Below are positions 3,192 to 21,619 of a DNA stretch of 51,348 bases, one piece after another (within the stretch, counting starts at the first letter, position 1; every line of letters starts with the position of its first letter). Below the pieces are notes generated by a model, which was given only the letters and a program-made list of their open reading frames with translations, was not told the origin of the DNA and searched no databases. Source of the DNA: Candidatus Woesearchaeota archaeon (lineage in GTDB: Archaea > Nanobdellota > Nanobdellia > Woesearchaeales > WAPJ01); assembly GCA_047602885.1 (NCBI GenBank), contig JBLKOQ010000004.1:1-51348 (forward strand). The letters are read 5' to 3'. Made by a program: the position numbers and the translations under genes.

Positions 3192-3280
3192 TCTTATTCA
3201 CTCTAACTTTATTTTTATAATATCTCTTCAGAAGAACACTATTAAATGTTTTGTTACTATTTTATAATCGCAATATAAAG

Positions 3281-3775
3281 TCATGGCATTTCAGGAAGAA
3301 TGCATTCTATTGCATCTCCTCCCCCAATAGTATACTCTGCTCTTTCACTGCCAAATATTGCAGGCGCCTGCGTTAGACTACCAGTACCAGTATTGTCATC
3401 AACCATTAGTATTATCAGATTCCCTTCCTGGTCTTCTAAATAAATACAGAAATCGTCTCTTATCCCAAGCTCCAGTTTCATAGCATTATAAGCATTTCTT
3501 CTATCATCGCCAGGAGCCGCATACATGAGACGCTCAATGTACTTTGCGATTTTCTTGTCATCAAGCATTCCCTCTGCTATTATGCCCTGTTCAGGACCGT
3601 CTATGCTTAAGAGGTTTTGGCTTGCAATATTTGCTTCTTGCACCAGTGTCCTCTGTATTCCGTCCTGACTGATATTATAGTAGTATATGACTGCTATTAT
3701 TAGGATTACTACGAATAGTGCTGTTGCGGTTATCGCATCAAAACTGAATGATTGTCCTCTCCTCGCTTTTCTCAT
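3281..3775 (-). CDS. Type IV pilin-like protein (class III signal peptide)
   Basis: N-terminus MRKARRGQSFSFDAITATALFVVILIIAVIYY has a basic leader, G|Q and a hydrophobic helix. It lies in a run of pilin-like genes upstream of the ATPase. Confidence 0.7.
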   Translation of the reverse strand: MRKARRGQSFSFDAITATALFVVILIIAVIYYYNISQDGIQRTLVQEANIASQNLLSIDGPEQGIIAEGMLDDKKIAKYIERLMYAAPGDDRRNAYNAMKLELGIRDDFCIYLEDQEGNLIILMVDDNTGTGSLTQAPAIFGSERAEYTIGGGDAIECILPEMP

Positions 3776-3791
3776 AATAGTCTCCCTTGTC

Positions 3792-4982: not shown

Positions 4983-4989
4983 AATACCA

Positions 4990-5463
4990 TCATGTAATGT
5001 TCAAGTGCACGTAAAGATTCCTGTTAGAATCTTCCATAGTCGTAAATATCATTGTTCTTCTCCCAGGACCCCATGCTACATTATCAGTGTCCAATGATAC
5101 ATTCACTGGAACGTGAAATCCTATGGATGAAACTCCATCATACCTATATCCTCGAGTATAAAGAACATACTCTCCTCCAATAAACCGACCTGCATCGTAT
5201 AACGGGTAATAAGTAATGTTAATTAGTATTCCTGGAACCTGTTCTTCTATAGTGCTCTTGGAGCCTTTTCCACCATAATATACTTGTTGTGTTTCTATAG
5301 CAAGTCTTGACCCCAACCTTAGTATCTGGTTTGATTCTACCTCCCTAGTCTGGGTATTAGAATATTGTACGAAGGCCAGTATTGCAGGCACTATTACTAT
5401 TAGCATCATGCCACTTACCATTAAGTACTCAACTGATGCCTGACCTCTTGTTTTCTTCTTCAT
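4990..5463 (-). CDS. Type IV pilin-like protein (class III signal peptide, Q-x-S-x-EY type)
   Basis: MKKKTRGQASVEYLMVSGMMLIVIVPAILAF. I prefer the internal ATG at 5463 (M20 of the tracked ORF 4990..5520). It places the basic leader at the N-terminus and sits downstream of the TATA-like TTTATAATA, read on the - strand at 5521-5529. Confidence 0.7.
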   Translation of the reverse strand: MKKKTRGQASVEYLMVSGMMLIVIVPAILAFVQYSNTQTREVESNQILRLGSRLAIETQQVYYGGKGSKSTIEEQVPGILINITYYPLYDAGRFIGGEYVLYTRGYRYDGVSSIGFHVPVNVSLDTDNVAWGPGRRTMIFTTMEDSNRNLYVHLNIT

Positions 5464-5591
5464 AGTAGTATCACTATATATGGTTCTTGCAATTACCTCA
5501 TCATTATTATCATAGTTCATTATTATAAATCTTTGCGTATTATTATCATGAAACCAATATGTTTTTATGTTAGTAACATAACATTACTATT

Positions 5592-6721: not shown

Positions 6722-7213
6722 TTATCCTGTCCTTCTCTTTATTACTTCCAGTCTTCCTTCAGTGCATATCCTTAGTGCTCCAGAATGAGTGTAATGAGGT
6801 GTTATTACTATCCTTCTAATTTCTCCATATACATCAGTATCATAATTCTCTATGGTAATCCATCGGCTAACCGCCGGAGAAATAGACTGCATCTTCTTTT
6901 CTACAACCAAATTTTCTCGCGTACCTTCAACAACATAGGTTATAGCCTCTACGGGATTAGGGCCTTCATTATACACGTTTACTCGCACACCACTACTGTC
7001 AACATCATAAACATAGTCTCCTGCCCTGTCAGGCGTACTTGATAAGCTCACAAATCTTGAACAGCCCTGCAATGCTGTATCATCAACCAATAGTATAAAA
7101 TAAGTGTAGACTACTGATCCTAGGGCTACAGCGAAGGCTATAAGCAGTATGGTAGCTATAAGGGGGCTTATACCCTTGCGGCTCGCAAAAACGCTGTTCT
7201 TCTTCATACTCAT
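6722..7213 (-). CDS. Archaeal pilin/flagellin N-terminal-like protein (DUF1628-type)
   Basis: MSMKKNSVFASRKGISPLIATILLIAFAVALGSVVYTYF: RKG followed by the I-S-P-L-I-A-T-I-L-L-I-A hydrophobic helix typical of archaeal type IV pilin-like proteins. Confidence 0.7.
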   Translation of the reverse strand: MSMKKNSVFASRKGISPLIATILLIAFAVALGSVVYTYFILLVDDTALQGCSRFVSLSSTPDRAGDYVYDVDSSGVRVNVYNEGPNPVEAITYVVEGTRENLVVEKKMQSISPAVSRWITIENYDTDVYGEIRRIVITPHYTHSGALRICTEGRLEVIKRRTG

Positions 7214-8886: not shown

Positions 8887-10116
8887 ATGAGTTCGCTCAG
8901 AAGAGTTAAGATAGGCTATTGTAATGCTAGGGTTAATGAAAAGCCCAGCTATGGGCCTATCATACTGGCTGACGATGGCGAACCAATGGCTTTGGTTGGA
9001 ACCATGAACGGAGGGCTTGTTACTATACCCCTAATATTCGGATCGTCCAAGGATTATCGCGATGAGTACGAAGTACTTAGCCTTACTGCAGGAAATACTA
9101 TTAATCTTAAGGAAATTTTTTTGGACCAGGAAGTCTCGTCTTCAGTTATAGGGATAGAAAATCACAAGAACACTATAATTGTATCCTTGCTGGACGGCAA
9201 GATTTTTAATGTTGGTCCCAAGGGAAACAAGCTCGTTGTTGAGTTTGAAAGCACCCTTAGTGCGCCGCCTACACTAATTGGTATAGGCCCACAATCATTC
9301 CTCTTAGTGCCTACTACTGAAGGAGTATTATATCTTATGGATGTTAACGGCAAGATAATATCGAAGATTGCAAATACTGGTAAAATATCATCTAAACCAT
9401 CGTTCATAGTCGATAATAACAGTGTCCTGATAGGTAACAGTGAAGGAATAGTCACATGCTATGATATTGGAAACAAAGGAGTGTTTGCCAAAAAATGGCA
9501 GTTTAAGGCCAATAAAGCAATAACTACCGAAATTATCCATTCGGACCTTATGTCTGACGGGAGGATATTCTATCTTTTTGGAAGCGCTGACAAGAGTATT
9601 TATTGCATTACTGATGAAGGGATAGTGGCATGGTCGTTTCCTACTGAAGGCAAGATAATCAGCGGTGTTTTCATTGACGATATTAATAATGACGGTGTCA
9701 AAGAAGTGGTTTTTGGCAGCTGTGATGACAAGGTATACGTATTGTCAGCATATGGTACAGAGATTTGGAATTATGAGACTGACTTTTGGGTTGCAGCAAC
9801 ACCGAGTGTTATTGATGTGGATGAGGACAATTACAAGGAAGTATTTGTAGGATCTTATGACAATTCATTATACTGTTTTAGTCCGGAAGCGGACTTCATC
9901 CCGCATTTCTTTTCTGGGGCTTCAGGCATAGTGCAACAGTCGTCCAGTTTCGAGCACGGATACACTGACGCAAGTGCAGGATACTTTGCCAGGAAACTGT
10001 TTCAGGAACAGCTTGACGGGATGATTATAGGGATATATGCGCATGAGAAAAAGAAGATACTGGCCGCTCTTACCAACAAGGGAGAATTCAGGTCATATCA
10101 GTTCGAACAATTGTGA
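8887..10116 (+). CDS. Beta-propeller protein with PQQ-like/FG-GAP-like repeats; no signal peptide
   Basis: Repeats such as VFIDDINNDGVKEVVFGSCDDKVYVLSAYGTEIWNY and VIDVDEDNYKEVFVGSYDNSLYCFS. ATG at 8887 is preceded by AAGGGG (8875-8880); the tracked start at 8869 is TTG. Confidence 0.7.
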   Translation: MSSLRRVKIGYCNARVNEKPSYGPIILADDGEPMALVGTMNGGLVTIPLIFGSSKDYRDEYEVLSLTAGNTINLKEIFLDQEVSSSVIGIENHKNTIIVSLLDGKIFNVGPKGNKLVVEFESTLSAPPTLIGIGPQSFLLVPTTEGVLYLMDVNGKIISKIANTGKISSKPSFIVDNNSVLIGNSEGIVTCYDIGNKGVFAKKWQFKANKAITTEIIHSDLMSDGRIFYLFGSADKSIYCITDEGIVAWSFPTEGKIISGVFIDDINNDGVKEVVFGSCDDKVYVLSAYGTEIWNYETDFWVAATPSVIDVDEDNYKEVFVGSYDNSLYCFSPEADFIPHFFSGASGIVQQSSSFEHGYTDASAGYFARKLFQEQLDGMIIGIYAHEKKKILAALTNKGEFRSYQFEQL

Positions 10117-10126
10117 GGGGTTTATT

Positions 10127-10939
10127 ATGGGAGTAGTACAAAACAAGAGTGAGATAGAAAGAATCAAGACATACATTGAAGGATTTGACAGGGAAATGCA
10201 AGGAGGCATACCCAAAAATCACATAGTCCTGTTCTCTGGGACGGCAGGTACTATGAAGAGCTCTTTGACTTTTAACATATTGTATAATGAGATACTGCAG
10301 AATAACAGGGTTGCATTGTATCTGACGTTAGAGCAGAGTTCTGAATCATTGCTGAATCATATGGTAAACATGGAATATGACCTTAGCAAGATTGATATAT
10401 ATGTCATTGATAATTTAGCAGAGCTTACTAATATAATGAAGTCTCTCAACAAGTCTTCTGAGGGCAGTCTCATAATGGCCGATCTTGGAGCATTAAGGAA
10501 AGAGATTCAGAGCGTAAAGGTCGCTTCTGGAGGGGACTGGATTAATGTAGTAAAAAACCTTATTAGGAAGCTTAAGGAATCTGTCAGCTTAGAAATGTTT
10601 GTACTGGATAGTCTTTCGGCATTGTATGTGGTTTCTGATTTTGAGAAGCCAAGAGTAGAGCTGTTTCATTTGTTCGAGTTCTTGCGTGACCTAAAAATAA
10701 CAACTTTTCTTATATCTGAGATGCCGCTTAGCAAGAACAAGTTTGGAGAGTTTGAAATAGAGTCTTTTCTCGCTGACGGAGTAATAAAGCTCGATCTTGT
10801 TGACAGACACAGAAAAGTCTCTAGGGAAATATCCGTTGTCAAGATGCGTTCTACACATGCCAATAATGATGTGTTTACGCTAGACTTTCAGGGAGGCAAG
10901 TTCAAGGCATTGTATGGCGGTCAGCCTGCACTTGTATAA
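10127..10939 (+). CDS. KaiC/RecA-superfamily ATPase (ArlH/FlaH-like) with a deviant Walker A
   Basis: IERIKTYIEGFDREMQGGIPKNHIVLFSGTAGTMKSSLTFNILY...ALYLTLEQS...MFVLDSLSAL (Walker B-like). ATG at 10127 is preceded by GAGGGG (10115-10120) and follows the upstream stop at 10116, so the tracked start at 10037 is rejected. Confidence 0.8.
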   Translation: MGVVQNKSEIERIKTYIEGFDREMQGGIPKNHIVLFSGTAGTMKSSLTFNILYNEILQNNRVALYLTLEQSSESLLNHMVNMEYDLSKIDIYVIDNLAELTNIMKSLNKSSEGSLIMADLGALRKEIQSVKVASGGDWINVVKNLIRKLKESVSLEMFVLDSLSALYVVSDFEKPRVELFHLFEFLRDLKITTFLISEMPLSKNKFGEFEIESFLADGVIKLDLVDRHRKVSREISVVKMRSTHANNDVFTLDFQGGKFKALYGGQPALV

Positions 10940-10953
10940 TTATAGTGGTGCTT

Positions 10954-11748
10954 ATGAGATTATGGCTTGATGCAGACAAGAGCTTAGAGGAGAATGCAGA
11001 ATCTTTTTTTGTACGTTCCAAAAAAGCAAAGAAGAAGTCAAGGGGAGCTGCCAGCGCTGTAGAAAGGATATCGTCAAGTGAGATTAAAAAGAAAGAGCGC
11101 AAGACAACAAGCAGTGTCAAGCGTAAGAAAGAACATTGGTATATGAAGTACAGATGGTTCTTTATAGACGATAATACTCTTATAATAGGAGGAAGGGATG
11201 CCAATACTAATGAAGAAATAATCAAGCGAAGAACAGAACCTTACGATATTGTATTTCATGCTGAGATGCCGGGAAGCCCTTTTTTTGTTATTAAGGGAAG
11301 CAAAGGGAGATTGTTTACTGAGGATGAAAAGCAGTTTGTGGCTAATGCAACAGCTTCATATTCCAGAGCGTGGAAATATGGTGTTTCTTTTATCGACATA
11401 TTTTGTGTCGCTCCCACACAGGTTTCCAAGAAGGCTAGGGCAGGAGAGTATCTTAGCAAAGGTTCTTTCATGATTAGGGGTAATAAGGAGTTTTATAAGG
11501 GAATATTATTATTGTACGGCTCCATTATAACTCTAGACTCTTCATCATATATTATGATTACTCCTCAAGAGCGAGACGATTCTTTCGTAAGAATAATACC
11601 TGGTAGTATGAAGCCTAGCGATGCTGCAAAGTCAATACTTAGTAATTTGGACAACAAAACAGATATAAACGCTGATGAAATTATATTATCGCTTCCTGCA
11701 GGAAATGTGGAGTTAGAGTTCTTAAAAAAGAGGGGTGAATCCTCTTGA
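10954..11748 (+). CDS. Stand-alone NFACT-R (DUF814) domain protein with a Lys-rich N-terminal segment
   Basis: ENAESFFVRSKKAKKK...WFFIDDNTLIIGGRDANTNEEIIKRRTEPYDIVFHAEMPGSPFFVIKG matches the C-terminal third of RqcH/NEMF/FbpA-type proteins. Alternative GTG starts at 10945 and 10948. Confidence 0.75.
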   Translation: MRLWLDADKSLEENAESFFVRSKKAKKKSRGAASAVERISSSEIKKKERKTTSSVKRKKEHWYMKYRWFFIDDNTLIIGGRDANTNEEIIKRRTEPYDIVFHAEMPGSPFFVIKGSKGRLFTEDEKQFVANATASYSRAWKYGVSFIDIFCVAPTQVSKKARAGEYLSKGSFMIRGNKEFYKGILLLYGSIITLDSSSYIMITPQERDDSFVRIIPGSMKPSDAAKSILSNLDNKTDINADEIILSLPAGNVELEFLKKRGESS

Positions 11749-13853
11749 TAAGAGGACAAGTATCTTTTTTTATCATTATAGGAATACTCATTGTTCTGTT
11801 AACAGCAACCTTGTTGTTTTTATATATACCTGATGGTACTGTAAGCACTCCTCCAGAGTTCCATGAACTGGAAATTATTCTTAGAAGCTGCAGTGAAGAG
11901 GCATTAAACGATGGCATTATTAGAGGCTCTCTTTTGGGAGGTCATCCTGAGCTTGCAAGAGTACTGGATGGTATCAGAGAGTCTGACATTCCTTTGCTGG
12001 CATCGCAGCCAATCGCATTCACCAACAATCATGAGCCTGTTCCTTACTGGACTTACTATAAGATGGCCTGCCATGACGATTGTGTTATGACTATGAAACC
12101 TAAGATTACAGGTTTTTTCAGCAGGAGAACATATAGTTATGATAGTAATGACATGAGTGTTGAAGCGCAGCTTTCAAGATATTCTTCCAGTATCGCCAGA
12201 GACTGTGTTATTGAACGTATCGCAGATGATGATACTTTTTCTTTAGACAGTATTGATGTTATGATGAATATTATATTGTCTGACATTAATCTTCAGTACG
12301 AAACAAGAATGACAGGGAGTATCAGCAGGGGAAGTGCTACTATAAGCTCTCTGCAGTCAAGGGGAAGTTTTGACACTTCTTTCAAGAGACTTTATGATGC
12401 GGCAAGCAAGATTAGCGCTATGGAGTCCGGGACAGGTTTTTCCAGCTTTTTAATAATGGATATAATATCTTTGGATAACAGCCCTAAAGGAAGGTATCCG
12501 CCTATGTGGGCTTTGGACATGAGTTATTCCATTAATAGTTGGACCTCGCGCCAAGTATCAGAAATGCTTTACGAGGATATCACTAATTATTTTAGTTTTG
12601 TTAGGCTTTCTGATTCCAGTCTTTTGTCTTCAGACGATTCTTTGATACCTTATGAGCTTAGGAGGACTATTATGGATATTAGGGATGATGGCACTCCTGT
12701 AGGTGATGATATGATTCTTACTCATTTGCCTTCTTATGCTGCTCCTACCGTTTCTTTCAGGGGCAGGAGCATTGTAATGGGAGAAACTTTGTCTATTCCT
12801 ATGGATCTTATTGCAAGCATCATACCCTTAAGGTCTTACAGGACATATTATGATATTAACACTCCTACCATCTATGAGCTTAGGAGCAAAACTGATGGTC
12901 TGGTCTTTAGATTTGCAGTTGAATCTGTGATAAAATCGAATATGCCAGTATATGACACTAGCCTGGCTCCTGTAACTGCTGGAGATTACATATCTGACGA
13001 TTTCCCTGATATTCATGCATTATCCATGGCCTATTGTGACTCTCCTCAAGGCTCACTAGTCTCATTTGATGTTATTGACGGCTCTACCGGATCGGCAGTA
13101 AGTGATGCTATGATATCATTTGCTTGTGAGCAGGAATTCTGCTCTTATGCTTACGATAGCAGTCCTATAAGGCTTCCCGTATGCATGAATGCGGATATTA
13201 CTGTACATCACGATTCTTTAGCCTTTGGCACAGTATCCTTGGACACTGTTGACTACGATATTCCTAAGAGTGCTTTGCTTATTGGATATGAAGCAAGCAC
13301 TGTGCCAGTAGATATTAGGTTATTGCCCTTATCACTTATAAGAAACGATCCTTATTATAGTACTACAGGTATTGCTCCAAGAACATTACAAGGAGAGGAG
13401 TATGCGATAATATTATTAAGGAATATTGATACTGAAAGTCAGCATGCAACCATTGTTACCCGTCATGGAATGAGTCAGGAATTATTGCTAACGCCAGGCT
13501 TCCACACCCTTGACATAATGGTTTTGAGAGATATTGAACTTTCTACTGTAACAATTCCTGAAGACAACAGATGTACTGTCAGCCTTTTTGGAGGACCTTG
13601 CCTTATTGGAAGTTATACTATTGACCGGGTAGACTTGGAGGACACTTTAGTATTGTCTAGTGTTTCATTTGGGGAGCACGAACCGATCTATATTCCTCCT
13701 GCTATTGCTACTGTACCACATACTGTTAATATGATTGTGCCCATAGTCGATTTGCAATCCATATCACAGTCTAATAGGATTATAGAACACTTGTCAGTAA
13801 TGGGAGATATGGATTATATTATGCGTTCGGAAGGATTTGTGGAGGTAAGTTAA
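11745..13853 (+). CDS. 702-aa exported protein with a prepilin-like N-terminus; unknown ectodomain
   Basis: The TTG start overlaps the upstream TGA and lies 6 nt after GAGGGGTGA (11730-11738). N-terminus MIRGQVSFFIIIGILIVLLTATLLF. Paralog of 17446..19095. Confidence 0.65.
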   Translation: MIRGQVSFFIIIGILIVLLTATLLFLYIPDGTVSTPPEFHELEIILRSCSEEALNDGIIRGSLLGGHPELARVLDGIRESDIPLLASQPIAFTNNHEPVPYWTYYKMACHDDCVMTMKPKITGFFSRRTYSYDSNDMSVEAQLSRYSSSIARDCVIERIADDDTFSLDSIDVMMNIILSDINLQYETRMTGSISRGSATISSLQSRGSFDTSFKRLYDAASKISAMESGTGFSSFLIMDIISLDNSPKGRYPPMWALDMSYSINSWTSRQVSEMLYEDITNYFSFVRLSDSSLLSSDDSLIPYELRRTIMDIRDDGTPVGDDMILTHLPSYAAPTVSFRGRSIVMGETLSIPMDLIASIIPLRSYRTYYDINTPTIYELRSKTDGLVFRFAVESVIKSNMPVYDTSLAPVTAGDYISDDFPDIHALSMAYCDSPQGSLVSFDVIDGSTGSAVSDAMISFACEQEFCSYAYDSSPIRLPVCMNADITVHHDSLAFGTVSLDTVDYDIPKSALLIGYEASTVPVDIRLLPLSLIRNDPYYSTTGIAPRTLQGEEYAIILLRNIDTESQHATIVTRHGMSQELLLTPGFHTLDIMVLRDIELSTVTIPEDNRCTVSLFGGPCLIGSYTIDRVDLEDTLVLSSVSFGEHEPIYIPPAIATVPHTVNMIVPIVDLQSISQSNRIIEHLSVMGDMDYIMRSEGFVEVS

Positions 13854-13855
13854 GC

Positions 13856-16702
13856 ATGAGAATTATTGTTATTATACTACTAATATTATCGTTCACCATA
13901 TTATTGTCTTCTCCTGTGCTTGCTTCCAGTATTGTTGACCTTCAGTTTTTGAGGGATGGGAGTCCTGCAGGCAAAACAGGGGGTATGCTGTCCGACATTC
14001 GCCTTGAGTTCACCAGTCCTGTAAACAGTGATGACGTTGAAATTAGTATTTACGCAACTGATACTATAAGCTTTAATCCTACATATTGTGATGGAATATA
14101 TTGTTATGTTGAAGGCCTATACATCTCTTCGGCTGGAAGACATGAAATTGAGGTAAAGCATTTTTCTTCCTTCGACCATTTCACCGTAACTATTGATACC
14201 GGTAGACCAGTAGTGTCAGGGCTTAGATTGTATAAGAGTGGCAGTACTTGGATGCTTGAAGGAAAAGTATTTGATCCTATAGCAGACTCTAGTGACATTC
14301 CTGGCTCTGGAATATCATCTATAGAGATAATAAAAGAGGGCACTGTAGAAGAAACGATTAGTCCTGGATTGGATGCAGAATATGATATTGCAATTAATGC
14401 TCCTTTTGATGTTATAGGACCAAGTGTGTCTTTTACTGTTAGGGCTTATGATGCTGCTGGCAATGTAGGACAGGCTATATTTAATGCTGCTATAGACGAG
14501 AATCCTCCTGAGATTATTAGTGTTAATGAAGGCTCTACTACATGGTATGCTAATACTGAGGGGAGGCTGGCTGTAAATATTGTCATTAGAGAGGATGAAA
14601 GGGTTGACACTGATAATTCTTATGTTAGGATAGGATCTATAACCTCTCCTATCAGTTATTGCAATAGTATAGATAGTGATGTGTATAGCTGTACTGCAAT
14701 ACTAAATGTTGATACTGGAATGATAGGAGATTCTCATAATGCTATAGTGCATGTCAGGGACAGGTTTGGAAATCAGGACGAGAATACTTATAGCATTACT
14801 ATAGAAGTTGATACTACCAGGCCAAGGCTATTAGACTTGTGGTCTGATGCACGCAGTTATAGCGAGCCTGCTGAACCATTCCTTTCATCGGGAGAATTTT
14901 TTGCTGAGTTTGAAGATGCTCCTTCAGGAATGGATCCTACAAGAACTATAGCAAGAATTACCAGTCCCTATGATATCGAAATAAGTCCTGATAGGTGCGT
15001 AATGGACGGTGGTCTGGCTAAGTGCTACTATAAAGTACTAGACACTACTAGGGGCGCAGTTACTACTCGCATAGTAAGAGGTTATGATAATAGTGGTAAC
15101 ATGATGCATTCTACTACATTGGAAAGATTGTTTCATATTGACAATAGTCCTCCTGTAATAACTGTTGGCATTGGAAGTCCAACAGCATATAGCACTGACA
15201 ATGTTGTTACTGTGCATTCAGGCTCAGCGTTCCATGCGCGTATAGCTGCAGTTAAGGATTCGGGTAGCAGGATATCGAGAGTTATGATAAAGAAGTATAG
15301 TGTGTCTACAGGAGAGCTATTATATGAAAATAGGATGGAAGGAAATGAATGCACTATTAGAATCAATACTATGGTATGCGATTATTCTGGCAGTGATATT
15401 ACAGAGGATATTCGTGTTGAAATCAAGGTTTATGACGGGGCAGGTAATAGTGCGAGCGTTACCAGGAATGTGAGGACTGGAGACAGCCTAATGGGCAGTA
15501 CTACTTGGAGAGTAATATCAATGACTTCCAGGCCTAGCTACTATTTTACTGGCATACCCTCACAATTCTCTATGACTATAAAATTGTATCCTCAAGGATC
15601 ACCTCCTGGCACTAGCATAGGAAGGGTTGGTCTTTCAAGATGCACTTCAACTAAAGGATCAATTACTGACAGTTATGCTTCTTCGAGCAGCAACAATATT
15701 AAGGTTAGCGGCGCACTGGCTACTTCCCCTAGTGAAGGTGGAATAGTAAATATTTCCTGTGACTTGGATGTTTATGCTCAGAGAGGAAGATATATTTCTG
15801 ATGATAGTGAAAGGATAACTGTTAATTTCTCATTGGCACAATATAACAGCATGGCCAATCCTAACAGTCCGTATAATCGGGGTTCTGACAATACTCTGTT
15901 TAGTGGGCTTTCAAGCCCTTCAGCCATTGATGTTTTAGGAAAGGCAGAAGAGTTTATTAGGATAGGAGAGGCTGTATGCAAGGCTTATGCCATTCTGACT
16001 TCTGGTTCTATAATATTGGATACTGTTGCTGCTGCAACTGGTGACATAGCATCACCAGTGGAGCCTGCTGCAAAAGCAGTTGATGAGGCCACTGACAAAT
16101 TCGGTGACTTTGCCGAGAAGGCTTGCAGTTACATTACTTGTGAGACTCCTGGGGCTGAGAAAGTATTGTCTTTCTATGACAAACTGGAAGGAAAGGTTAT
16201 AGGCAACCTTACTGATATTGGACTATTTCACCTTACTCATTCAGGCAGAAGAAATGTCCAGGACTCTCTGATACAGTCAGTGTTATCTGTTTGTGTTCCT
16301 GGAATAGTAAAGAATGTTCGTAAGTTCCAGCAGGTTGAATGCGGTTATGCTTTATGCCTGCTCGATGCTGATGAGGGAAAAGTGCCTGCTGCTATGTGCG
16401 AGTACGGAAAGAGCACTGCTTATTGTGAAGCTTATGCCTCTGAAGTATTTGCAGTTGTTCCTTACGGCCTAATAGTAAAGGATGCTGGCTTTAATCTTAA
16501 TAGCTTATTGCAGCGTCCTATTACTGTTGCAGGAGGTTTTCTTATGAATCAATTGCAAAAGAACTCTCCTACATTGAGGTATGCCTTAAAACTCGTTAAA
16601 TTTGCACAGGAGCTGGCACCCATATTGGGAATAAATTTTGGGGTTACTCATGAGACTCCAGCAGTGGACTACTGTGATATGCTTGAAAGCAGGAGGGCAT
16701 AA
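13856..16702 (+). CDS. 948-aa secreted protein: Sec signal, about four Ig-like modules, C-terminal Cys-rich module
   Basis: MRIIVIILLILSFTILLSSPVLASS. Recurrent domain-boundary motifs: IDTGRPVV, IDENPPEII, VDTTRPRLL, IDNSPPVIT. The last ~250 aa hold many Cys. GGAGGT lies 9 nt upstream of the ATG. Confidence 0.65.
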   Translation: MRIIVIILLILSFTILLSSPVLASSIVDLQFLRDGSPAGKTGGMLSDIRLEFTSPVNSDDVEISIYATDTISFNPTYCDGIYCYVEGLYISSAGRHEIEVKHFSSFDHFTVTIDTGRPVVSGLRLYKSGSTWMLEGKVFDPIADSSDIPGSGISSIEIIKEGTVEETISPGLDAEYDIAINAPFDVIGPSVSFTVRAYDAAGNVGQAIFNAAIDENPPEIISVNEGSTTWYANTEGRLAVNIVIREDERVDTDNSYVRIGSITSPISYCNSIDSDVYSCTAILNVDTGMIGDSHNAIVHVRDRFGNQDENTYSITIEVDTTRPRLLDLWSDARSYSEPAEPFLSSGEFFAEFEDAPSGMDPTRTIARITSPYDIEISPDRCVMDGGLAKCYYKVLDTTRGAVTTRIVRGYDNSGNMMHSTTLERLFHIDNSPPVITVGIGSPTAYSTDNVVTVHSGSAFHARIAAVKDSGSRISRVMIKKYSVSTGELLYENRMEGNECTIRINTMVCDYSGSDITEDIRVEIKVYDGAGNSASVTRNVRTGDSLMGSTTWRVISMTSRPSYYFTGIPSQFSMTIKLYPQGSPPGTSIGRVGLSRCTSTKGSITDSYASSSSNNIKVSGALATSPSEGGIVNISCDLDVYAQRGRYISDDSERITVNFSLAQYNSMANPNSPYNRGSDNTLFSGLSSPSAIDVLGKAEEFIRIGEAVCKAYAILTSGSIILDTVAAATGDIASPVEPAAKAVDEATDKFGDFAEKACSYITCETPGAEKVLSFYDKLEGKVIGNLTDIGLFHLTHSGRRNVQDSLIQSVLSVCVPGIVKNVRKFQQVECGYALCLLDADEGKVPAAMCEYGKSTAYCEAYASEVFAVVPYGLIVKDAGFNLNSLLQRPITVAGGFLMNQLQKNSPTLRYALKLVKFAQELAPILGINFGVTHETPAVDYCDMLESRRA

Positions 16703-16732
16703 AAGAATTTATAAAAGAAAGGTGCATAGGTA

Positions 16733-17449
16733 TTGGTTATGAATAGTACAAAAAAGCATTTGATAGTAACAGTGGCATTATTGTTCTTAGTCTCTTCAAC
16801 CTCTGTTGTTGCCTTTGATGTAAGCCAAGCGCTTGATGCTATTAACAGGATACAAAGGGTTGCTGACAGCGATGATAGGTATGCTGCTGCAGTAGAGATA
16901 GGAAATATGGCTTGGGGACTGTTTTGTGGGTGTGCTACTACCAATAGTTGTGAGGGCATAGGGGCATTTTTTTGTGCAGATCTGACTGATCCCGCACTAA
17001 TAGACAGCGAAGGTCTTAGGTGGGCTTCTAGAATACTAGGCAATCCTGAGCAAGGTATATGCGCTCTTGTTAACCAGAACAAGGCATATAATGTTGGTCT
17101 TAGCGTTGATAATACGGGTATGAACTCTTCGTTTCAGAGACATGTTAACGCTTATGTTGAGGCGGCAAGAGCTTATAACGAGGATACTATGGAGTATACT
17201 TATTATTATAGCTTTAATTTTTTTCCTACAAGCGCTTATAATTCTACTGATGTTAAGTTCTACGTAATGCAAGGTTCTAGTCGCATAGATCTTCCCACTG
17301 AGGTTATACCAGTGACTGACCAGGGTTTTAGGCATAGGTATACAACTAATAGTAAGCAATTGTATGACAAAGCATGCATGAGGTTCACTAAAGGCAATCC
17401 TGACGGCTTTGCTAGAAACACTCTTTGCGCTAGGGTGACTGCAATATGA
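16733..17449 (+). CDS. 238-aa secreted Cys-containing protein, unknown function
   Basis: Signal-like N-terminus KKHLIVTVALLFLVSSTSVVAF, then CGCATTNSCEGIGAFFC. Start is TTG at 16733 or ATG at 16739, after AAAGGTG. Confidence 0.55.
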   Translation: MVMNSTKKHLIVTVALLFLVSSTSVVAFDVSQALDAINRIQRVADSDDRYAAAVEIGNMAWGLFCGCATTNSCEGIGAFFCADLTDPALIDSEGLRWASRILGNPEQGICALVNQNKAYNVGLSVDNTGMNSSFQRHVNAYVEAARAYNEDTMEYTYYYSFNFFPTSAYNSTDVKFYVMQGSSRIDLPTEVIPVTDQGFRHRYTTNSKQLYDKACMRFTKGNPDGFARNTLCARVTAI

Positions 17450-19095
17450 AAGGCCAAGTATCATTTTTCATTATTATAGGCATACTTGGGGTTATTGCAG
17501 TAGTAGCAGGAATGCTCATATTCAGCACTCCTACTACTGTTACTCCTCCTTCAGAGCATACGTCTGATTTTGTGACTCTGAGGAGCTGTATTGATTCCGA
17601 GTTTGCAGACTCAATACTAGTGGCAGCCTTGAACGGTGGGATTATTGAGATGTCTAGTTATCAGAGAAGGAATGGGGCCTTTTTTGAGCCGATACCCGGA
17701 TATGAGTTCCCATTATGGAATAAGAATAGCATATCTTATATTCCTGACAAGTCCGAGTTAGAGGCAGGACTTGAAAAAGAGCTTTTAGATAGAATAGAAG
17801 AAAGATGTCTTAGAGAGTCAGGTATAGACCCTAGGACTACTGCTCAAGTATCAGTAACACTATCAGAAAACTCCAATAATGCAGAGGTGGCGTTTGAAGG
17901 CGAGTTTATAGAGGATGGTTCTAGGACCAGAATACCAAGTGTAAGAGTTGACAATAATCTCCCACTATTACAAACTTATAATGTTGCTGTGTCATTAGCT
18001 GAGCACCTTCTTAGTTCAGGCATTTTAGTAGGATTGAATCAGAACATTATAGAATTATCTCCTGATGTCCCCACTAGTGGAATGAGTTTTAGCTGCAGAA
18101 CACAACAGTGGCGTAAAAGCCAGGTTCAGAAAGATTTTGAGAAAGGTCTTGAATTGTATGCTCCTTATCTCAGGTTTGACAATAACCCAAGCGTAGTAAG
18201 TGATATAGCATCCAGACATTTTACTTTTGATGTACCTGCAGCCAGAACTCCGGGGATAGATGTCCGTGCCAATTATCATAACAGTTTTGGGATGCTCTTC
18301 GACGCTGAAAAATCTCAGGGGGATATCATGACCAGTTTTGTGACTATGAATCCTGACAGTCCGGGTATTTGTCAAAATCATTATAGTTTCTGGTATAGTG
18401 TCGAATACCCTTTAGTTTTTACTGTTCAGAACAGTGGTTCTTCTATTCCTTTTGAGTTCAGGATGGCTTTATATAATGAGGTTTACAGAAACATTTTGGA
18501 CGAGCCTCCAGCCCGAACAGGTGTGCAGGATTATTGTAGGGACACTACTTTCAGGCGAGCAAAAATCAATCTTAGGGATGATCAAGGAACAACTATACTA
18601 AATGCGTTTGCTAGGATAAGGTGTGGCAATGAAGAGTGTGTTGTCAGAACAGACTCTAACGGTATTATTAATGACTATCTTCCAAGAAGGTGCATTAGGG
18701 GCACTATGACTATAGAAAAAGAAGGCTATCAGACTGCTACAGTTAATTATGATGCATCTGACTTTACCGGTTTCAATGGACAAACAGTAGTAATGTCCAA
18801 GCTTCGGACGATTAAGCTCTCTTTTAGCAGTGATGATTATGATATTAGTAGCTTCTTTTTTACTCTTGTTCATAATGGCAGGTGGACTACTTTTGATATT
18901 GACACTGCAAGAATATCAAGAGACTACATAGACGTAGAATTTCAGATACTGAAGGTCGAGCCAGCAGGCAATCTAGTAGTAGTTTATGGTCCTGATACTA
19001 TTCCCAATAATGATGATTTAACTATTAATATTAATACCCAGCGCTTATATGACGGACAATATTCAACGGCAGTGGATGTGGTGAGGAATGACTAA
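17446..19095 (+). CDS. 549-aa exported protein with a prepilin-like N-terminus (paralog of 11745..13853)
   Basis: MKGQVSFFIIIGILGVIAVVAGMLIF. It shares GQVSFFIIIGIL, then TPP...LRSC...GG, with the 702-aa protein. The ATG overlaps the upstream TGA (ATGA) and AGGGTGA lies upstream. Confidence 0.65.
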   Translation: MKGQVSFFIIIGILGVIAVVAGMLIFSTPTTVTPPSEHTSDFVTLRSCIDSEFADSILVAALNGGIIEMSSYQRRNGAFFEPIPGYEFPLWNKNSISYIPDKSELEAGLEKELLDRIEERCLRESGIDPRTTAQVSVTLSENSNNAEVAFEGEFIEDGSRTRIPSVRVDNNLPLLQTYNVAVSLAEHLLSSGILVGLNQNIIELSPDVPTSGMSFSCRTQQWRKSQVQKDFEKGLELYAPYLRFDNNPSVVSDIASRHFTFDVPAARTPGIDVRANYHNSFGMLFDAEKSQGDIMTSFVTMNPDSPGICQNHYSFWYSVEYPLVFTVQNSGSSIPFEFRMALYNEVYRNILDEPPARTGVQDYCRDTTFRRAKINLRDDQGTTILNAFARIRCGNEECVVRTDSNGIINDYLPRRCIRGTMTIEKEGYQTATVNYDASDFTGFNGQTVVMSKLRTIKLSFSSDDYDISSFFFTLVHNGRWTTFDIDTARISRDYIDVEFQILKVEPAGNLVVVYGPDTIPNNDDLTININTQRLYDGQYSTAVDVVRND

Positions 19096-21619
19096 GAGTA
19101 TTTATATTATGTTAGTGTTGTTAGGACTTACATTATTGTTTAGTCTGGACGCTTACGCTACCTTGCAGTTTCAGGACTGTGTTACTGCAGACCCTTATTT
19201 TAGTATAACACTAGATCCTAGCAATCCCAATCGTTCAGTCCAATCAATACCAAGACTTGACTTTACTGTTGATACTCTTGTAAGAATAACTTCTGACTCT
19301 TCTGTTACTGTAAGAAGGGTTGATTTTGGATTGCTTCCTACTATGGATACTAGAATTAACAGTCTTACAGACCAGAGAGTTACAGGCTCAGACTATCTGC
19401 TTTATGTTAATGCTAGGTTTAATGATAATGCACATAAAAATGATTCTGTAGGGAATAATGTGAGGATTAATGGCATTGCAGCAAGAATAATGTATGATGA
19501 TGCCAACGGAAATCTTGACATGACATACATATGTGTTCCTCCTATCACTCTTCGTATTACTGGCAGCCAGACTAGTCTTCCTGAAGAAGTTGATAAAAGA
19601 ATCAAGGAGATAGAAAAGAGGATTGAGACTGCTGAAAAGATACAATTGGTACTTGCTGTCATGAACCTTATGTCCACGTTCTCTTGCCAGGAGAAGACAA
19701 ATGAACTGAACATAGCAAAGAGTGTGTTCGAAGCAAATTGTAATATGATACATGAAGTATTGAGAAACATTAGCCTTTCTATTAATGATACAGATGCATT
19801 ATGTGTTGATACTGATAATAGTTCAGCATTACACATAGATAATTGTAACTTATGCATCAACTATTACAACACTCTTGTTGGTCTTAAGACAGAAACTGCT
19901 AATGCATGCCAAAGGCTAGAATGCAGTGACATGATATCTTTTGCCCATTTTAAAAACACGTTCCCTGGGGATATTATAGGGCTGAATTATTGTGATGAGA
20001 ATAAAGACTATTATGATGCTGCTAAGTGCGAGAAGCAGTATAGGGCTTCAGAACAGCCGAAATGCTGGCTACAAGATCCTGTAGAACTATCTAAGAATGC
20101 TGAGAATCCCGCTTCAGGATTCAATCCCCTTGGATTTATTACGGGTTTTGACTTTTGTTCTGACAAGAGAGATCCAATACAAGTTATTAAGAGTCCTGCT
20201 AACGATCTTTTTAGCTCTCTGACATGTGGATGTTTTCCAGGCTTATTGGGATGGTCTGACCTATATTTAGACAGCCTAAAAATGGAACTACAATGTGTGA
20301 AGGGAGCTACTAGCAGGAATTTGAGCACTTGTAGAAACGCTTTATTTGTATTCGGATGTGATATGTTAATTAATGCTCTTACATGCGGAGGAGTCAATTT
20401 CGGAATTCACAATAACGATGCAAGGTTCTTGTTCAGGCATTCTGATGGCTCATCGATTGACATGTCAGACCTTACTCCTCAGCAGATCAGAGAATATATT
20501 AATGACGGTTATACGACTATGATTAGTGGTTCTGTATCATTTGACACTTCCGAACTGATACATAATGTTTGTTCTTCAGTATTTGGAGACAAGGATGTTG
20601 ATTGGGCTGAGACTATACTGAGCGGTATCGATGTGGGCTCCACTGATGTTATCTCATTATGTCCTACTGGAAGCGTTAGGGGACCTTGTTATTGCGGGAG
20701 CGATTTTGAAAGCGCCACCATAAACTGCGGCAACACGCCATCTAACAACTATTGTGATTTTTCAGACGGCAATCCTACTGGGGAATGTACAGGTACAGTA
20801 ACTATACCAGTGCCTGAGCCTTCTATTGATGTAGATTTTCCTGCAGATAACGATGTAGAAGTGGACGAGAATGATTATAATCAAGGTGATAATCCTGATA
20901 TTATCGATTCTCAATATAGTGCCCAGTATTATCATAGAATGTCTGCAGATGTTCCAGTTAGGGTTGAAGATTGTGTACGTTACTTAGACGGAAGGGGAGT
21001 TTATATTAGGGTAAGGTCTTTTTCAGATTTTAGGATTACTGATTACTATATCAGACTATATAATCGATACCATACGACTACTAATAGTGGGAGTATTCAT
21101 AAGTTCTTTTGTTTAGACGACAATCGCAATAAAGTTAATAGAGGTACACACGTCGTTAGGATAGAGCACGATGAGAGTGGCAACCAGTTGCCGCCTGAAC
21201 AACAAACACCATTTGATAATAGTAATGCTGTAAGGGCTACTGAGGCTCAAATAAGCTCTCTAGCCAGTATGATAACTACAAGGATTATTAATGAGTGCAA
21301 AGATTTGGGAACGCGGCAGGATCAATATACAAGAAGTGGGGCATATAGTAATATTAGAACTGCGACTAATAGTTATATAAACAGCTTTGCAACATGCATT
21401 GCAGACTATAACCAGTATCCACAATGCAGACCAGCACCATATCTTTTCGATAGTGCAGATAAGAACACTGCAAAAAATCGTTTAATCGAAGAAATGAAAA
21501 AACAATTAGAAGATTATGATAGAATCCGGGCCCTTCCTATACATGGTGAGCCTGGATCTAATGATATCTCTTTTTCAGATATTGTTATGAGAGGATGCAT
21601 TCATTATTTAGAAGTATAA
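19088..21619 (+). CDS. 843-aa secreted Cys-rich protein, unknown function
   Basis: MTKSIYIMLVLLGLTLLFSLDAYA signal peptide. Dense Cys in the central 370 aa. The start overlaps the upstream gene by 8 nt, with GGTGAGGA immediately upstream. Confidence 0.65.
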   Translation: MTKSIYIMLVLLGLTLLFSLDAYATLQFQDCVTADPYFSITLDPSNPNRSVQSIPRLDFTVDTLVRITSDSSVTVRRVDFGLLPTMDTRINSLTDQRVTGSDYLLYVNARFNDNAHKNDSVGNNVRINGIAARIMYDDANGNLDMTYICVPPITLRITGSQTSLPEEVDKRIKEIEKRIETAEKIQLVLAVMNLMSTFSCQEKTNELNIAKSVFEANCNMIHEVLRNISLSINDTDALCVDTDNSSALHIDNCNLCINYYNTLVGLKTETANACQRLECSDMISFAHFKNTFPGDIIGLNYCDENKDYYDAAKCEKQYRASEQPKCWLQDPVELSKNAENPASGFNPLGFITGFDFCSDKRDPIQVIKSPANDLFSSLTCGCFPGLLGWSDLYLDSLKMELQCVKGATSRNLSTCRNALFVFGCDMLINALTCGGVNFGIHNNDARFLFRHSDGSSIDMSDLTPQQIREYINDGYTTMISGSVSFDTSELIHNVCSSVFGDKDVDWAETILSGIDVGSTDVISLCPTGSVRGPCYCGSDFESATINCGNTPSNNYCDFSDGNPTGECTGTVTIPVPEPSIDVDFPADNDVEVDENDYNQGDNPDIIDSQYSAQYYHRMSADVPVRVEDCVRYLDGRGVYIRVRSFSDFRITDYYIRLYNRYHTTTNSGSIHKFFCLDDNRNKVNRGTHVVRIEHDESGNQLPPEQQTPFDNSNAVRATEAQISSLASMITTRIINECKDLGTRQDQYTRSGAYSNIRTATNSYINSFATCIADYNQYPQCRPAPYLFDSADKNTAKNRLIEEMKKQLEDYDRIRALPIHGEPGSNDISFSDIVMRGCIHYLEV

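What the first reader, a model, noticed from the sequence alone, without database searches (positions are those of the whole stretch)
8887..21619. 12.7-kb eight-gene operon: beta-propeller, deviant KaiC-like ATPase, orphan NFACT-R, and duplicated pairs of prepilin-like and Sec-secreted Cys-rich giant proteins; candidate undescribed surface filament/adhesion system
Seen in sequence:
- Eight consecutive + strand ORFs: 8887-10116, 10127-10939, 10954-11748, 11745-13853, 13856-16702, 16733-17449, 17446-19095, 19088-21619.
- Gaps are 0-30 nt, with three stop/start overlaps.
- Purine-rich SD boxes precede internal starts: GAGGGG before 10127, GAGGGGTGA before the TTG at 11745, GGAGGT before 13856, AGGGTGA before 17446, GGTGAGGA before 19088.
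- Content: a cytoplasmic PQQ/FG-GAP-type propeller, a KaiC/ArlH-like RecA ATPase and an NFACT-R-only protein. Then come two copies of a pair: a protein with N-terminus M-x-(R/K)-G-Q-VSFFIIIGIL and a 500-700 aa ectodomain, followed by a Sec-signal protein of 840-950 aa rich in Cys. A 238-aa secreted Cys protein sits between the copies.
- That is roughly 3,280 aa of exported protein for which I recognise no characterised family.

Established knowledge: archaeal type IV pilin-like proteins are cleaved after the Gly of a (K/R)G motif, and KaiC-like ATPases (ArlH) partner type IV filament motors.

Inference: this is a dedicated, ATPase-regulated surface filament or adhesin module, plausibly host- or substrate-attachment machinery of a small-genome archaeon. 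It may use the PilB-like ATPase encoded at 1-656.
Basis: partly seen in the sequence, partly recalled or inferred. Interest (0 to 1): 0.85.

Follow-up and report, generated by a model that had tools for sequence, protein, structure and literature searches.

The report
DPANN surface-protein cassettes beside KaiC module
Eight tightly packed genes of an uncultured DPANN archaeon join a conserved cytoplasmic propeller/KaiC-like ATPase/NFACT-R trio to two copies of a widespread but unannotated cassette (a prepilin-like membrane protein followed by a giant secreted cysteine-containing protein), which probably builds a cell-surface adhesion or envelope complex.

Summary
Eight + strand ORFs lie at the stated coordinates, with gaps of -8 to +30 nt and SD-like boxes. 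Pfam/NCBIfam confirm a beta-propeller, a single-domain KaiC-like ATPase and an NFACT-R protein equal to the C-terminal half of archaeal RqcH. The other five proteins hit no family and no solved structure.

g4 and g7 are true paralogs with a class III (prepilin-type) N-terminus. They belong to a large unannotated family: 1,666 clusters at 50% identity, with members in Pacearchaeota and Nanobdellota. In all 13 distinct loci examined, the family gene is followed directly, usually with a 4-nt overlap, by a large Sec-signal protein. That two-gene cassette is the conserved unit.

g5 and g8 are not demonstrably homologous; they share at most a ~60-residue Cys motif (hhalign E 5e-4, probability 30%).

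The KaiC link is lineage-specific. It is kept in five related organisms. In the six more distant Woesearchaeota/Nanoarchaeota MAGs the propeller-KaiC pair persists, but no pilin-like gene lies in the flanks held for them. It is also absent around most distant cassettes. The KaiC-like protein fails the ArlH model.

The most likely reading is a surface adhesin or envelope complex anchored by a prepilin-like subunit. I rate it a new variant of a known kind.

The parts
8887..10116 (+). g1: cytoplasmic beta-propeller (PQQ/FG-GAP-like), 409 aa
   Evidence: PF25292 1e-15 (above cut-off) and PF13570 7.8e-24. No hydrophobic segment. A homolog lies immediately upstream of the KaiC-like gene in all six Woesearchaeota/Nanoarchaeota MAGs, and also in L001, L003 and L037.
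10127..10939 (+). g2: single-domain KaiC-like RecA-type ATPase, 270 aa, Walker A GTAGTMKS
   Evidence: PF06745 2.5e-38. ArlH model scores 50.8 bits against a cut-off of 215. KaiC structures match at 2.4e-30. It is 91-92% identical in L001/L003, where neighbouring genes are 37-64%. The GTMKS variant is shared by a whole subfamily.
10954..11748 (+). g3: stand-alone NFACT-R protein, equal to the C-terminal half of archaeal RqcH, 264 aa
   Evidence: PF05670 5.3e-28. NF041120 RqcH_arch 2.4e-78, but only profile positions 381-644 and below the cut-off. Homologs in relatives have the same 258-276 aa size.
11745..13853 (+). g4: prepilin-like (class III signal) surface protein, 702 aa, TTG start overlapping the g3 stop
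   Evidence: N-terminus MIRG|QVSFFIIIGIL. Paralog of g7. Member of the 1,666-cluster family. A g5-type giant follows it in L001, L003 and L037.
13856..16702 (+). g5: Sec-signal giant protein, 948 aa, with a variable Ig-like N-terminal region and a conserved Cys-containing C-terminal domain (about residues 690-948)
   Evidence: Weak Big_3 hits. The C-terminal domain is conserved in L001, L003, L032 and L037, and the motif also in L038, L034, L039 and L042. No TM segment beyond the signal.
16733..17449 (+). g6: small secreted Cys protein, 238 aa (alternative start ATG 16739)
   Evidence: Signal-like N-terminus and 7 Cys. Homologs precede the g7-like gene in L001, L003 and L030/L031. A TATA-like TTTATAAAA lies in the 30-nt gap upstream.
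17446..19095 (+). g7: prepilin-like (class III signal) surface protein, 549 aa
   Evidence: N-terminus MKG|QVSFFIIIGIL. AF2 model pLDDT 84.9: helix 2-27, helix 38-62, an alpha/beta head, and C-terminal beta-sandwiches. No global structural analog.
19088..21619 (+). g8: Sec-signal protein, 843 aa, 32 Cys
   Evidence: Homologs P0005-7. A g8-type 1,607-aa protein follows the g7-like gene in L032. The AF2 model is poor (pLDDT 47); only the N-terminal beta-sandwich at about residues 35-160 is confident.
1..656 (-). N-terminal part of a GspE/FlaI-type type IV filament secretion ATPase (runs off the window)
   Evidence: phmmer against PDB: 2oap 2.7e-18, FlaI 1.2e-12, CpaF 2e-8.
663..5520 (-). Upstream type IV filament locus: three small or medium pilin-like proteins (4990-5520, 3792-4982, 3281-3775) and an 842-aa coiled-coil protein (663-3191)
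   Evidence: N-termini are TRGQASVEYL, KKGQVSIEAV and RRGQSFSFDAI, each followed by a hydrophobic stretch. Two of the three have E at +5.
6722..7213 (-). Additional small pilin-like protein, 163 aa
   Evidence: N-terminus SRKG|ISPLIATILLIAFAVALG.

Best explanation
The block is a composite of two modules, co-oriented and probably co-transcribed in this lineage.

**Module A (g1-g3), cytoplasmic.** It comprises a beta-propeller, a single-domain KaiC-like ATPase of the 'GTMKS' subfamily, and a stand-alone NFACT-R protein derived from RqcH. The propeller-KaiC pair is the conserved core.

**Module B (g4-g8), a cell-surface module.** It is built from two diverged copies of a two-gene cassette that is widespread in DPANN archaea of the Woese-/Pacearchaeota type.
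- The first gene encodes a 550-700 aa protein with a class III (prepilin) signal, [KR][GA]|Q-x-x-x-F.
- Its stop overlaps the start of a large Sec-exported, disulfide-containing protein (g5 or g8).
- A small secreted Cys protein (g6) sits between the two copies.

**Inferred mechanism (not shown).**
- A class III signal peptidase cuts the prepilin-like subunit after Gly/Ala.
- Its N-terminal helix then stays in the membrane, or is incorporated at the tip or base of a type IV-like filament. That filament would be made by the machinery and the E5-bearing pilins encoded just upstream.
- Lacking an acidic residue at +5, the subunit resembles tip-type minor pilins such as GspK.
- It holds the anchorless giant partner at the cell surface, where Ig-like and beta-sandwich domains mediate adhesion to a host or a substrate.
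- The KaiC module is at most a lineage-specific regulatory or co-expression partner. It is not a motor component.
For: **Shown by tool results**
- ORF packing and SD boxes.
- Domain identities.
- Topology.
- g4/g7 paralogy.
- Family size: 1,666 clusters at E<=1e-3 and 881 at E<=1e-10, with matches starting at residues 2-5.
- The class III motif occurs in 147 of 153 representatives. The +5 residue is Phe in 122 and is never acidic.
- The AF2 model of g7 has pLDDT 84.9, with an N-terminal helix and C-terminal beta-sandwiches. Its local fold matches are to Gram-positive pilus adhesins and carboxypeptidase-regulatory-like domains.
- In 13 distinct loci the family gene is directly followed by a large Sec-signal protein. 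Several of these share the g5-type Cys domain at 33-43% identity.
- g1-g5 order is kept in L037, where the KaiC-like protein is 77% identical but the g4- and g5-like proteins only 27-29%. KaiC, NFACT-R and g4 are kept in L033, and g6-g7-g8 in L030/L031.
- The propeller-KaiC pair occurs without the surface module in L004-L009.
- A secretion ATPase and pilins lie upstream.

**From the literature**
- KaiC-like ATPases, large signal-peptide proteins and conserved cysteines recur in archaeal type IV pilus loci (PMC4858521; bioRxiv 10.64898/2026.04.22.720090).
Against: - No signal peptidase or platform (TadC) gene was found in the window.
- Foldseek found no pilin among the matches, and the best global TM-score was <=0.16.
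- An N-terminal [KR][GA]Q plus a hydrophobic helix could simply be an uncleaved signal anchor.
- Many archaeal pilins also lack E5, so the analogy with tip pilins is weak.
- Physical interaction between the prepilin-like protein and the giant is inferred only from conserved adjacency and overlapping stop/start codons.
- Most distant cassettes have no filament machinery nearby, and they lie among housekeeping genes. That placement fits a constitutive envelope component at least as well.
- The g8 structure could not be modelled (pLDDT 47).
Confidence: 0.5

Rival explanations
1. Two-component cell envelope (S-layer-like). The prepilin-like protein would be a membrane stalk or anchor held by its N-terminal helix, and the giant secreted partner would be the outer canopy. 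This is analogous to the co-transcribed SlaB/SlaA pair of Sulfolobales. On this reading the cassette is a housekeeping wall component of Woese-/Pacearchaeota, not an adhesin.
For: - The cassette is very widespread (1,666 clusters).
- In distant genomes it stands alone between ribosomal-protein, TFIIB, SRP and tRNA-synthetase genes.
- The giants have no membrane anchor of their own.
- Sequence divergence is fast (27-60% identity where KaiC is 77-92%), as is typical of S-layer proteins.
Against: - There is no sequence or fold similarity to any known S-layer protein.
- To my knowledge, class III signals are not known on S-layer anchors.
- The window holds other candidate wall proteins with C-terminal anchors (47287-48993).
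- Two or more diverged cassettes per genome, with different giants, would be unusual for a lattice.
Confidence: 0.22
2. All eight genes form one dedicated surface filament system, in which the KaiC-like ATPase acts like ArlH as a partner of the PilB-like motor, and NFACT-R and the propeller are system components.
For: - Tight packing, with the g3 stop overlapping the g4 start.
- The order propeller, KaiC, NFACT-R, g4-like, g5-like is retained in L037 although the surface proteins have diverged to 27-29% identity. KaiC, NFACT-R and g4-like are retained in L033.
- KaiC-like ATPases are known neighbours of archaeal type IV pilus loci (PMC4858521).
Against: - The ArlH equivalog model is failed (50.8 bits against 215).
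- The propeller-KaiC pair is conserved without any pilin-like gene in the flanks held for six MAGs.
- Seven distant cassettes with upstream sequence held (L034) have no KaiC beside them. The upstream side of an eighth, L032, is cut by the contig end.
- The same GTMKS KaiC subfamily occurs as tandem arrays in Thermoplasmata, where no homolog of the other seven window proteins was found in the flanks.
- KaiC is 91-92% conserved where the surface proteins are 37-60%. That suggests a different, housekeeping-like constraint.
Confidence: 0.12
3. Bindosome-like display. On this reading g4 and g7 are not filament or anchor subunits. They would be class III-signal ligand-binding proteins that a type IV-like system assembles at the surface for nutrient capture, as in the Sulfolobus Bas system.
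For: - Size of 550-700 aa and a class III signal on a non-pilin-sized protein.
- DPANN cells scavenge nutrients.
Against: - The confident AF2 model matched no solute-binding protein.
- No ABC transporter genes are adjacent in any locus.
- The obligate giant partner is not explained.
Confidence: 0.06

Closest known systems
Archaeal type IV filament (TFF) loci with class III signal (SPIII) pilins, large adhesin-like proteins and KaiC-like ATPases (Makarova, Koonin & Albers 2016, PMC4858521; bioRxiv 10.64898/2026.04.22.720090)
   Same: - [KR][GA]|Q class III motif followed by a hydrophobic helix.
- Large signal-peptide proteins with conserved cysteines and Ig-like folds.
- A KaiC-family ATPase in the same predicted operon.
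- A secretion ATPase and small pilins nearby.
   Different: - The SPIII proteins here are 550-700 aa, and no Pfam or NCBIfam model reaches its curated cut-off on them.
- They are strictly paired with a downstream giant partner.
- In most genomes the cassette is detached from any ATPase or platform gene.
Tip-type minor (pseudo)pilins such as GspK, and the minor-pilin/PilY1 tip complex of bacterial type IV pili and type II secretion (from my own knowledge)
   Same: - A large pilin-like subunit lacking the acidic residue at +5.
- It is proposed to sit at a filament tip and present a large non-pilin adhesin.
   Different: - No sequence or fold homology was detected.
- E5 is not a reliable marker in archaea.
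- The partner giants have no PilY1-like propeller or DUF2341 domain.
SlaA/SlaB two-component S-layer of Sulfolobales (from my own knowledge)
   Same: A co-transcribed pair of a membrane-anchored subunit and a large secreted outer subunit. The sequences evolve fast.
   Different: SlaB is anchored by a C-terminal helix and has a Sec signal. No homology was found, and there are two different cassettes per genome.
ArlH/KaiC-like ATPases
   Same: A single RecA-like KaiC domain (PF06745), with Walker B and the catalytic Glu retained.
   Different: - It fails the ArlH equivalog model.
- Walker A is GxxGTMKS, with Met replacing the Gly before Lys.
- Its conserved partner is a beta-propeller, not ArlI/ArlJ.
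RqcH/NEMF (NFACT) ribosome quality-control factor
   Same: The NFACT-R and C-terminal region align to archaeal RqcH positions 381-644 at 2.4e-78.
   Different: It lacks the NFACT-N and most of the coiled-coil part needed for tRNA and ribosome tailing, and it stands alone at about 260 aa in all relatives seen.

Membership tests
Archaeal type IV pilin-like (class III signal peptide) proteins | N-terminal [KR][GA]|x motif followed by about 20 hydrophobic residues | tested here: met
   g4 has MIRG|QVSFFIIIGIL and g7 has MKG|QVSFFIIIGIL. The motif occurs in 147 of 153 family representatives, with a median leader of 5 aa. There is a single N-terminal hydrophobic segment.
Archaeal type IV pilin-like (class III signal peptide) proteins | Cleavage by a PibD/FlaK/EppA-type prepilin peptidase | not testable with these tools
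   No peptidase gene was recognised among the window ORFs scanned. N-terminal proteomics is needed.
Archaeal type IV pilin-like (class III signal peptide) proteins | Pilin fold: a long N-terminal helix packed against a beta-sheet head | tested here: inconclusive
   AF2 gives helix 2-27, a low-confidence break, helix 38-62, and then an alpha/beta head. Foldseek returned no pilin or archaellin. The profile's N-terminus matched a fimbrial protein only weakly (E 0.78).
Archaeal type IV pilin-like (class III signal peptide) proteins | Match to a curated pilin or archaellin family model | tested here: not met
   No significant Pfam or NCBIfam hit for g4 or g7.
Type IV filament system (complete locus) | Secretion ATPase, platform protein, pilins and peptidase encoded together | tested here: inconclusive
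   An ATPase N-terminus and four small pilins lie 3-9 kb upstream on the other strand. No platform or peptidase gene was seen, and the window ends inside the ATPase.
ArlH (archaellum KaiC-like ATPase) | Score at or above the NCBIfam equivalog cut-off | tested here: not met
   NF052589 scores 50.8 bits against a cut-off of 215.
KaiC superfamily | PF06745 domain above the gathering score | tested here: met
   132.2 bits against 26.6. KaiC structures match at 2.4e-30.
KaiC superfamily | Canonical Walker A GxxxxGK[ST] and two tandem domains | tested here: not met
   Walker A is GTAGTMKS. The protein has a single 270-aa domain.
RqcH/NEMF | NFACT-N + coiled coil + NFACT-R architecture, with a score at or above the equivalog cut-off | tested here: not met
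   Only profile positions 381-644 are matched, at 264.5 bits against a cut-off of 400. NFACT_N gives only a 49-residue sub-threshold hit.
Archaeal S-layer proteins | Homology to a known S-layer family, or lattice formation | tested here: not met
   No hit above threshold for g4-g8, and none to any S-layer family, in Pfam, NCBIfam or PDB sequences; Foldseek on the g7 model returned no S-layer protein. Lattice formation is not testable here.
The g4/g7-type cassette (defined here) | The family gene is immediately followed by a large Sec-signal protein with overlapping or near-overlapping stop/start | tested here: met
   Met twice in the window, and in L001, L003, L032, L034, L037, L038, L039, L040, L042, L044 and L030/31.

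The most novel reading that the evidence does not exclude
The prepilin-like + giant-partner cassette is the principal host- or substrate-attachment device of Woese-/Pacearchaeota-type DPANN archaea. It would be an unrecognised, structurally new class of type IV filament-associated tip or anchor complex present in most of these genomes. In this lineage its expression or assembly would be coupled to a propeller/KaiC-like/NFACT-R signalling or translation-control module.
Probability: 0.2. Interest if true: 0.8.

Novelty: new variant of a known kind. Interest (0 to 1): 0.55.

Why it matters
DPANN archaea of the Woese-/Pacearchaeota type are abundant and uncultured, and are thought to live attached to hosts. 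The proteins that mediate that contact are essentially unknown. This analysis makes three contributions.

- It turns five 'hypothetical proteins' into a defined, very widespread two-gene cassette: more than 1,600 sequence clusters, a confident AF2 model, and no analog among solved structures or in curated families. The cassette has a testable topology and a testable partner relationship.
- It separates that cassette from a second conserved unit, the propeller + GTMKS-type KaiC-like ATPase ± stand-alone NFACT-R. The function of that unit is also unknown, and its extreme conservation (91-92%) suggests something important.
- If the cassette is the attachment or envelope device, it offers a marker for predicting host interaction and a target for cryo-ET and proteomics in enrichment cultures.

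Tried and rejected
- **Exact look-up of g7.** The sequence was not on record.
- **Word-based homolog search.** It found only 3 relatives each for g7 and g8. This wrongly suggests a tiny family; the exhaustive profile search showed 1,666 clusters.
- **Metagenome scan with the N-terminal motif.** It returned only 4 loci.
- **Third homolog search, with the g5 C-terminal domain alignment.** It returned nothing, not even the known relatives, so it gives no information on how large the g5 family is.
- **AF2 of g8.**
  - With 4 close sequences the model was poor (pLDDT 47), so I did not run a fold search on it.
- **g5 versus g8 homology.**
  - BLASTP gave nothing.
  - hhalign gave E 0.031 and probability 1.6%.
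  - With broader profiles it gave E 5e-4 and probability 30% over 59 columns, with four aligned Cys.
  - I rate this suggestive only.
- **Foldseek of g7 against PDB and BFVD.** Only local beta-sandwich matches appeared. I rejected any reading as a cholesterol-dependent cytolysin or a protease, because TM-scores were <=0.16 and rmsd 19-40 Å.
- **Two ideas rejected.** I rejected ArlH membership and an intact RqcH.
- **My regex scan for class III signals.** It was too strict and missed the upstream pilins, so I did not use it.
- **Literature searches.** I found no description of this family or of a KaiC/NFACT-R link.

Full report
**1. Observation**

The window is archaeal. It carries prefoldin, eIF6, ZPR1, an archaeal-type ProRS and FtsY, and its GC content is about 0.39.

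Eight + strand ORFs occupy 8887-21619 exactly as described. The gaps are 10, 14, -4, 2, 30, -4 and -8 nt, and SD-like purine boxes precede the internal starts. A 159-nt spacer containing a T5 tract separates g8 from ZPR1.

- **g1** is a beta-propeller (PF25292 1e-15; PF13570 7.8e-24).
- **g2** is a KaiC domain (PF06745 2.5e-38).
- **g3** is an NFACT-R protein. It matches the archaeal RqcH model only over profile positions 381-644 (2.4e-78, below the cut-off).
- **g4-g8** have no significant Pfam, NCBIfam or PDB-sequence relative.

Hydropathy shows no hydrophobic segment in g1-g3. g4 and g7 have one N-terminal helix. g5, g6 and g8 have only an N-terminal signal, apart from one marginal interior segment in g8.

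**2. Corrections to the description**

- g4 and g7 are paralogs: 22% identity over about 540 residues, E 2e-13.
- g5 and g8 are not detectably related by BLASTP. Profile-profile comparison repeatedly aligns one ~60-residue motif (S-x-x-x-C-x-P-G-[IL] ... C ... C ... C), but only at E 0.031, or at E 5e-4 with 30% probability using broader profiles. 'Duplicated pairs' is therefore proven for one partner only.
- The Walker A motif GTAGTMKS is real. It is shared by every relative recovered, including tandem KaiC-like arrays in Thermoplasmata. It is a subfamily signature, with Lys, Ser, the catalytic Glu and Walker B all retained.
- g2 fails the ArlH model (50.8 bits against a cut-off of 215).
- The fragment at 1-656 lies on the minus strand. 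It is the N-terminus of a GspE/FlaI-type secretion ATPase.
- That fragment ends a minus-strand locus with three pilin-like proteins (TRGQASVEYL..., KKGQVSIEAV..., RRGQSFSFDAI...) and an 842-aa coiled-coil protein. A further small pilin lies at 6722-7213.

**3. The prepilin-like family**

A word-based search found only three relatives of g7, at 51-60% identity. An exhaustive profile search against 1.84 billion representatives found 1,666 proteins at E<=1e-3 and 881 at E<=1e-10. They are typically 600-720 aa, and the match begins at residues 2-5.

- Of 153 representatives, 147 carry [KRS][GAS]-Q near the N-terminus. The median leader is 5 aa.
- The +5 residue is Phe in 122 of them and is never acidic.
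- By contrast, two of the three pilins in the upstream locus have Glu at +5.
- Six cysteines, a GGY motif and a PYW motif are conserved in the family.
- Named members are 'hypothetical protein' from Candidatus Pacearchaeota and Nanobdellota archaea.

With a 26-sequence alignment AF2 gave a good model of g7 (pLDDT 84.9). It shows helix 2-27, a flexible break, helix 38-62, an alpha/beta head, and beta-sandwich domains from about residue 367 to 548.

Foldseek found no global analog in PDB or BFVD (TM-score normalised to the query <=0.22). It found only local matches:
- Ig-like and pilus-adhesin proteins (B. anthracis TIE, SpyCEP, SpaC, PitA);
- carboxypeptidase-regulatory-like and PEGA domains.

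**4. Genomic context**

*Close relatives.* L001/L002 and L003 are JGI metagenome contigs. They keep all eight genes plus ZPR1.

*More divergent contigs.*
- L037 has propeller 51%, KaiC 77%, NFACT-R 43%, g4-like 29% and g5-like 27% identity, in the same order.
- L033 has KaiC 75%, NFACT-R 46% and g4-like 34%.
- L030/L031 have g6-like, g7-like and g8-like genes in order.

The eight-gene order is therefore conserved in about five organisms. This is not just recent common ancestry.

*Species-representative genomes.* The closest KaiC orthologs found there (52-55% identity) are six Woesearchaeota/Nanoarchaeota MAGs. Two of these records carry Methanosarcinales titles.
- All six have the propeller immediately upstream of KaiC.
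- NFACT-R is adjacent in one, 2.5 kb away in a second, and about 5 kb away on the opposite strand in a third.
- None has a pilin-like family member within the flanks held, up to 10 kb on each side. Three of the six contigs are only 5.7-7.5 kb.

*Distant family members.* They are found as follows.
- L032: g5-like, a Cys-rich 631-aa protein, g4-like, g7-like, then a g8-like protein of 1,607 aa.
- L038: a family member, then proteins of 1,460, 455 and 1,597 aa.
- L039: a family member, then a 2,031-aa protein, next to ribosomal protein genes.
- L042: a family member, then a 1,933-aa protein, between Cdc45-like and TFIIB genes.
- L034, L040 and L044: the same pattern.

No KaiC or secretion ATPase was seen beside any of them; in L032 the upstream side is cut by the contig end.

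In all 13 distinct loci the family gene is directly followed by a large Sec-signal protein, usually with a 4-nt overlap. The giants of L034, L038, L039 and L042 share a 230-430-residue region at 33-43% identity. That region contains the g5-type Cys motif.

The conserved functional unit is therefore the two-gene cassette. The window has two diverged copies (g4-g5 and g7-g8), with g6 between them.

**5. Interpretation**

The data support a composite block.

*Module A (g1-g3).* The propeller-KaiC pair is the stable core. KaiC is 91-92% identical among close relatives, where the neighbouring genes are 37-64%. That points to a strongly constrained cytoplasmic role. The stand-alone ~260-aa NFACT-R is a lineage feature.

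*Module B (g4-g8).* These are surface proteins. The giants lack any anchor, and their genes are translationally coupled to a gene for a protein with a single N-terminal helix. The simplest mechanism is therefore that the prepilin-like subunit retains its partner at the cell surface.

Three features suggest processing by the class III peptidase and handling by the type IV filament machinery:
- the strictly conserved [KR][GA]Q signature;
- the same signature on the pilins of the adjacent filament locus;
- the absence of an acidic +5 residue.

The subunit could then act as a tip or base subunit presenting an adhesin. These steps are inference. Neither cleavage, nor complex formation, nor filament association has been shown.

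*Rivals.*
- An S-layer-like two-component envelope is a serious rival. The cassette is near-ubiquitous and often sits among housekeeping genes.
The retained g1-g5 order at 27-29% identity keeps a lineage-specific functional coupling possible.

**6. Comparison with what is known**

Comparative genomics has already reported three things: archaeal type IV pilus loci carry KaiC-family ATPases, they carry large signal-peptide proteins that may be adhesins or minor pilins, and many components have conserved cysteines (PMC4858521). A 2026 preprint again stresses SPIII proteins and Ig-rich adhesin-like proteins in these loci, including in DPANN (10.64898/2026.04.22.720090). DPANN-specific families without annotation are known to be mostly membrane-bound or extracellular (PMC8204110).

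What is new here:
- the specific, very large family;
- its obligatory giant partner;
- its fold, which has no solved analog;
- the recognition that the propeller-KaiC(-NFACT-R) unit is separate.

I found no paper describing either unit.

**7. Verdict**

I rate it a new variant of a known kind: class III-signal surface proteins plus adhesin-like partners near a type IV filament locus. Interest is moderate to good, because the cassette is widespread, unannotated and directly testable. It is not the self-contained new machine that was proposed.

Noticed in passing
window 44823-45671 (+): A 282-aa secreted protein with Kazal-type serine protease inhibitor domains (Kazal_1 1.7e-21, Kazal_2 1.8e-13, two stretches each). 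To my knowledge Kazal domains are unusual in archaea.
   Followed up: no
window 47287-48993 (-) and 49020-50372 (-): Two further surface-type proteins. The second has a weak SpaA/prealbumin-like hit. The first ends in a PG-hydrophobic-RRKKNN C-terminal anchor, so it is a candidate wall or S-layer protein.
   Followed up: no
window 16703-16732: The 30-nt g5-g6 spacer contains TTTATAAAA, an archaeal TATA-like box, about 25-30 nt upstream of ATG 16739. This could be an internal promoter, and it suggests an alternative start for g6.
   Followed up: partly
L010-L020 (Methanomassiliicoccales/Thermoplasmata MAGs): The same GTMKS-type KaiC-like subfamily occurs there as tandem arrays of 2-4 paralogs. 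No homolog of the window's other seven proteins was found in those flanks.
   Followed up: partly
L003 1475-2715: The propeller gene upstream of KaiC is broken into three ORFs in this relative. This may be a pseudogene or an assembly frameshift.
   Followed up: no
L040 5935-6120, L042 9871-10011, L044 4534-4689: Small ORFs of 46-61 aa lie just upstream of the pilin-like gene in three distant loci. They overlap its start in L042 and L044, and end about 100 nt before it in L040. They may be a conserved small partner or leader peptide.
   Followed up: no
window 5592-6721 (+): Two tandem HIT-family hydrolase genes with a 1-nt overlap lie between the pilin locus and the operon.
   Followed up: no
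L004 1321-8619: A 2,432-aa surface protein lies immediately upstream of the propeller-KaiC pair in a Woesearchaeota-like MAG whose record title says Methanosarcinales. By my reading of its sequence it has a subtilase-like region, repeat arrays and a C-terminal TM segment; I ran no family search on it.
   Followed up: no
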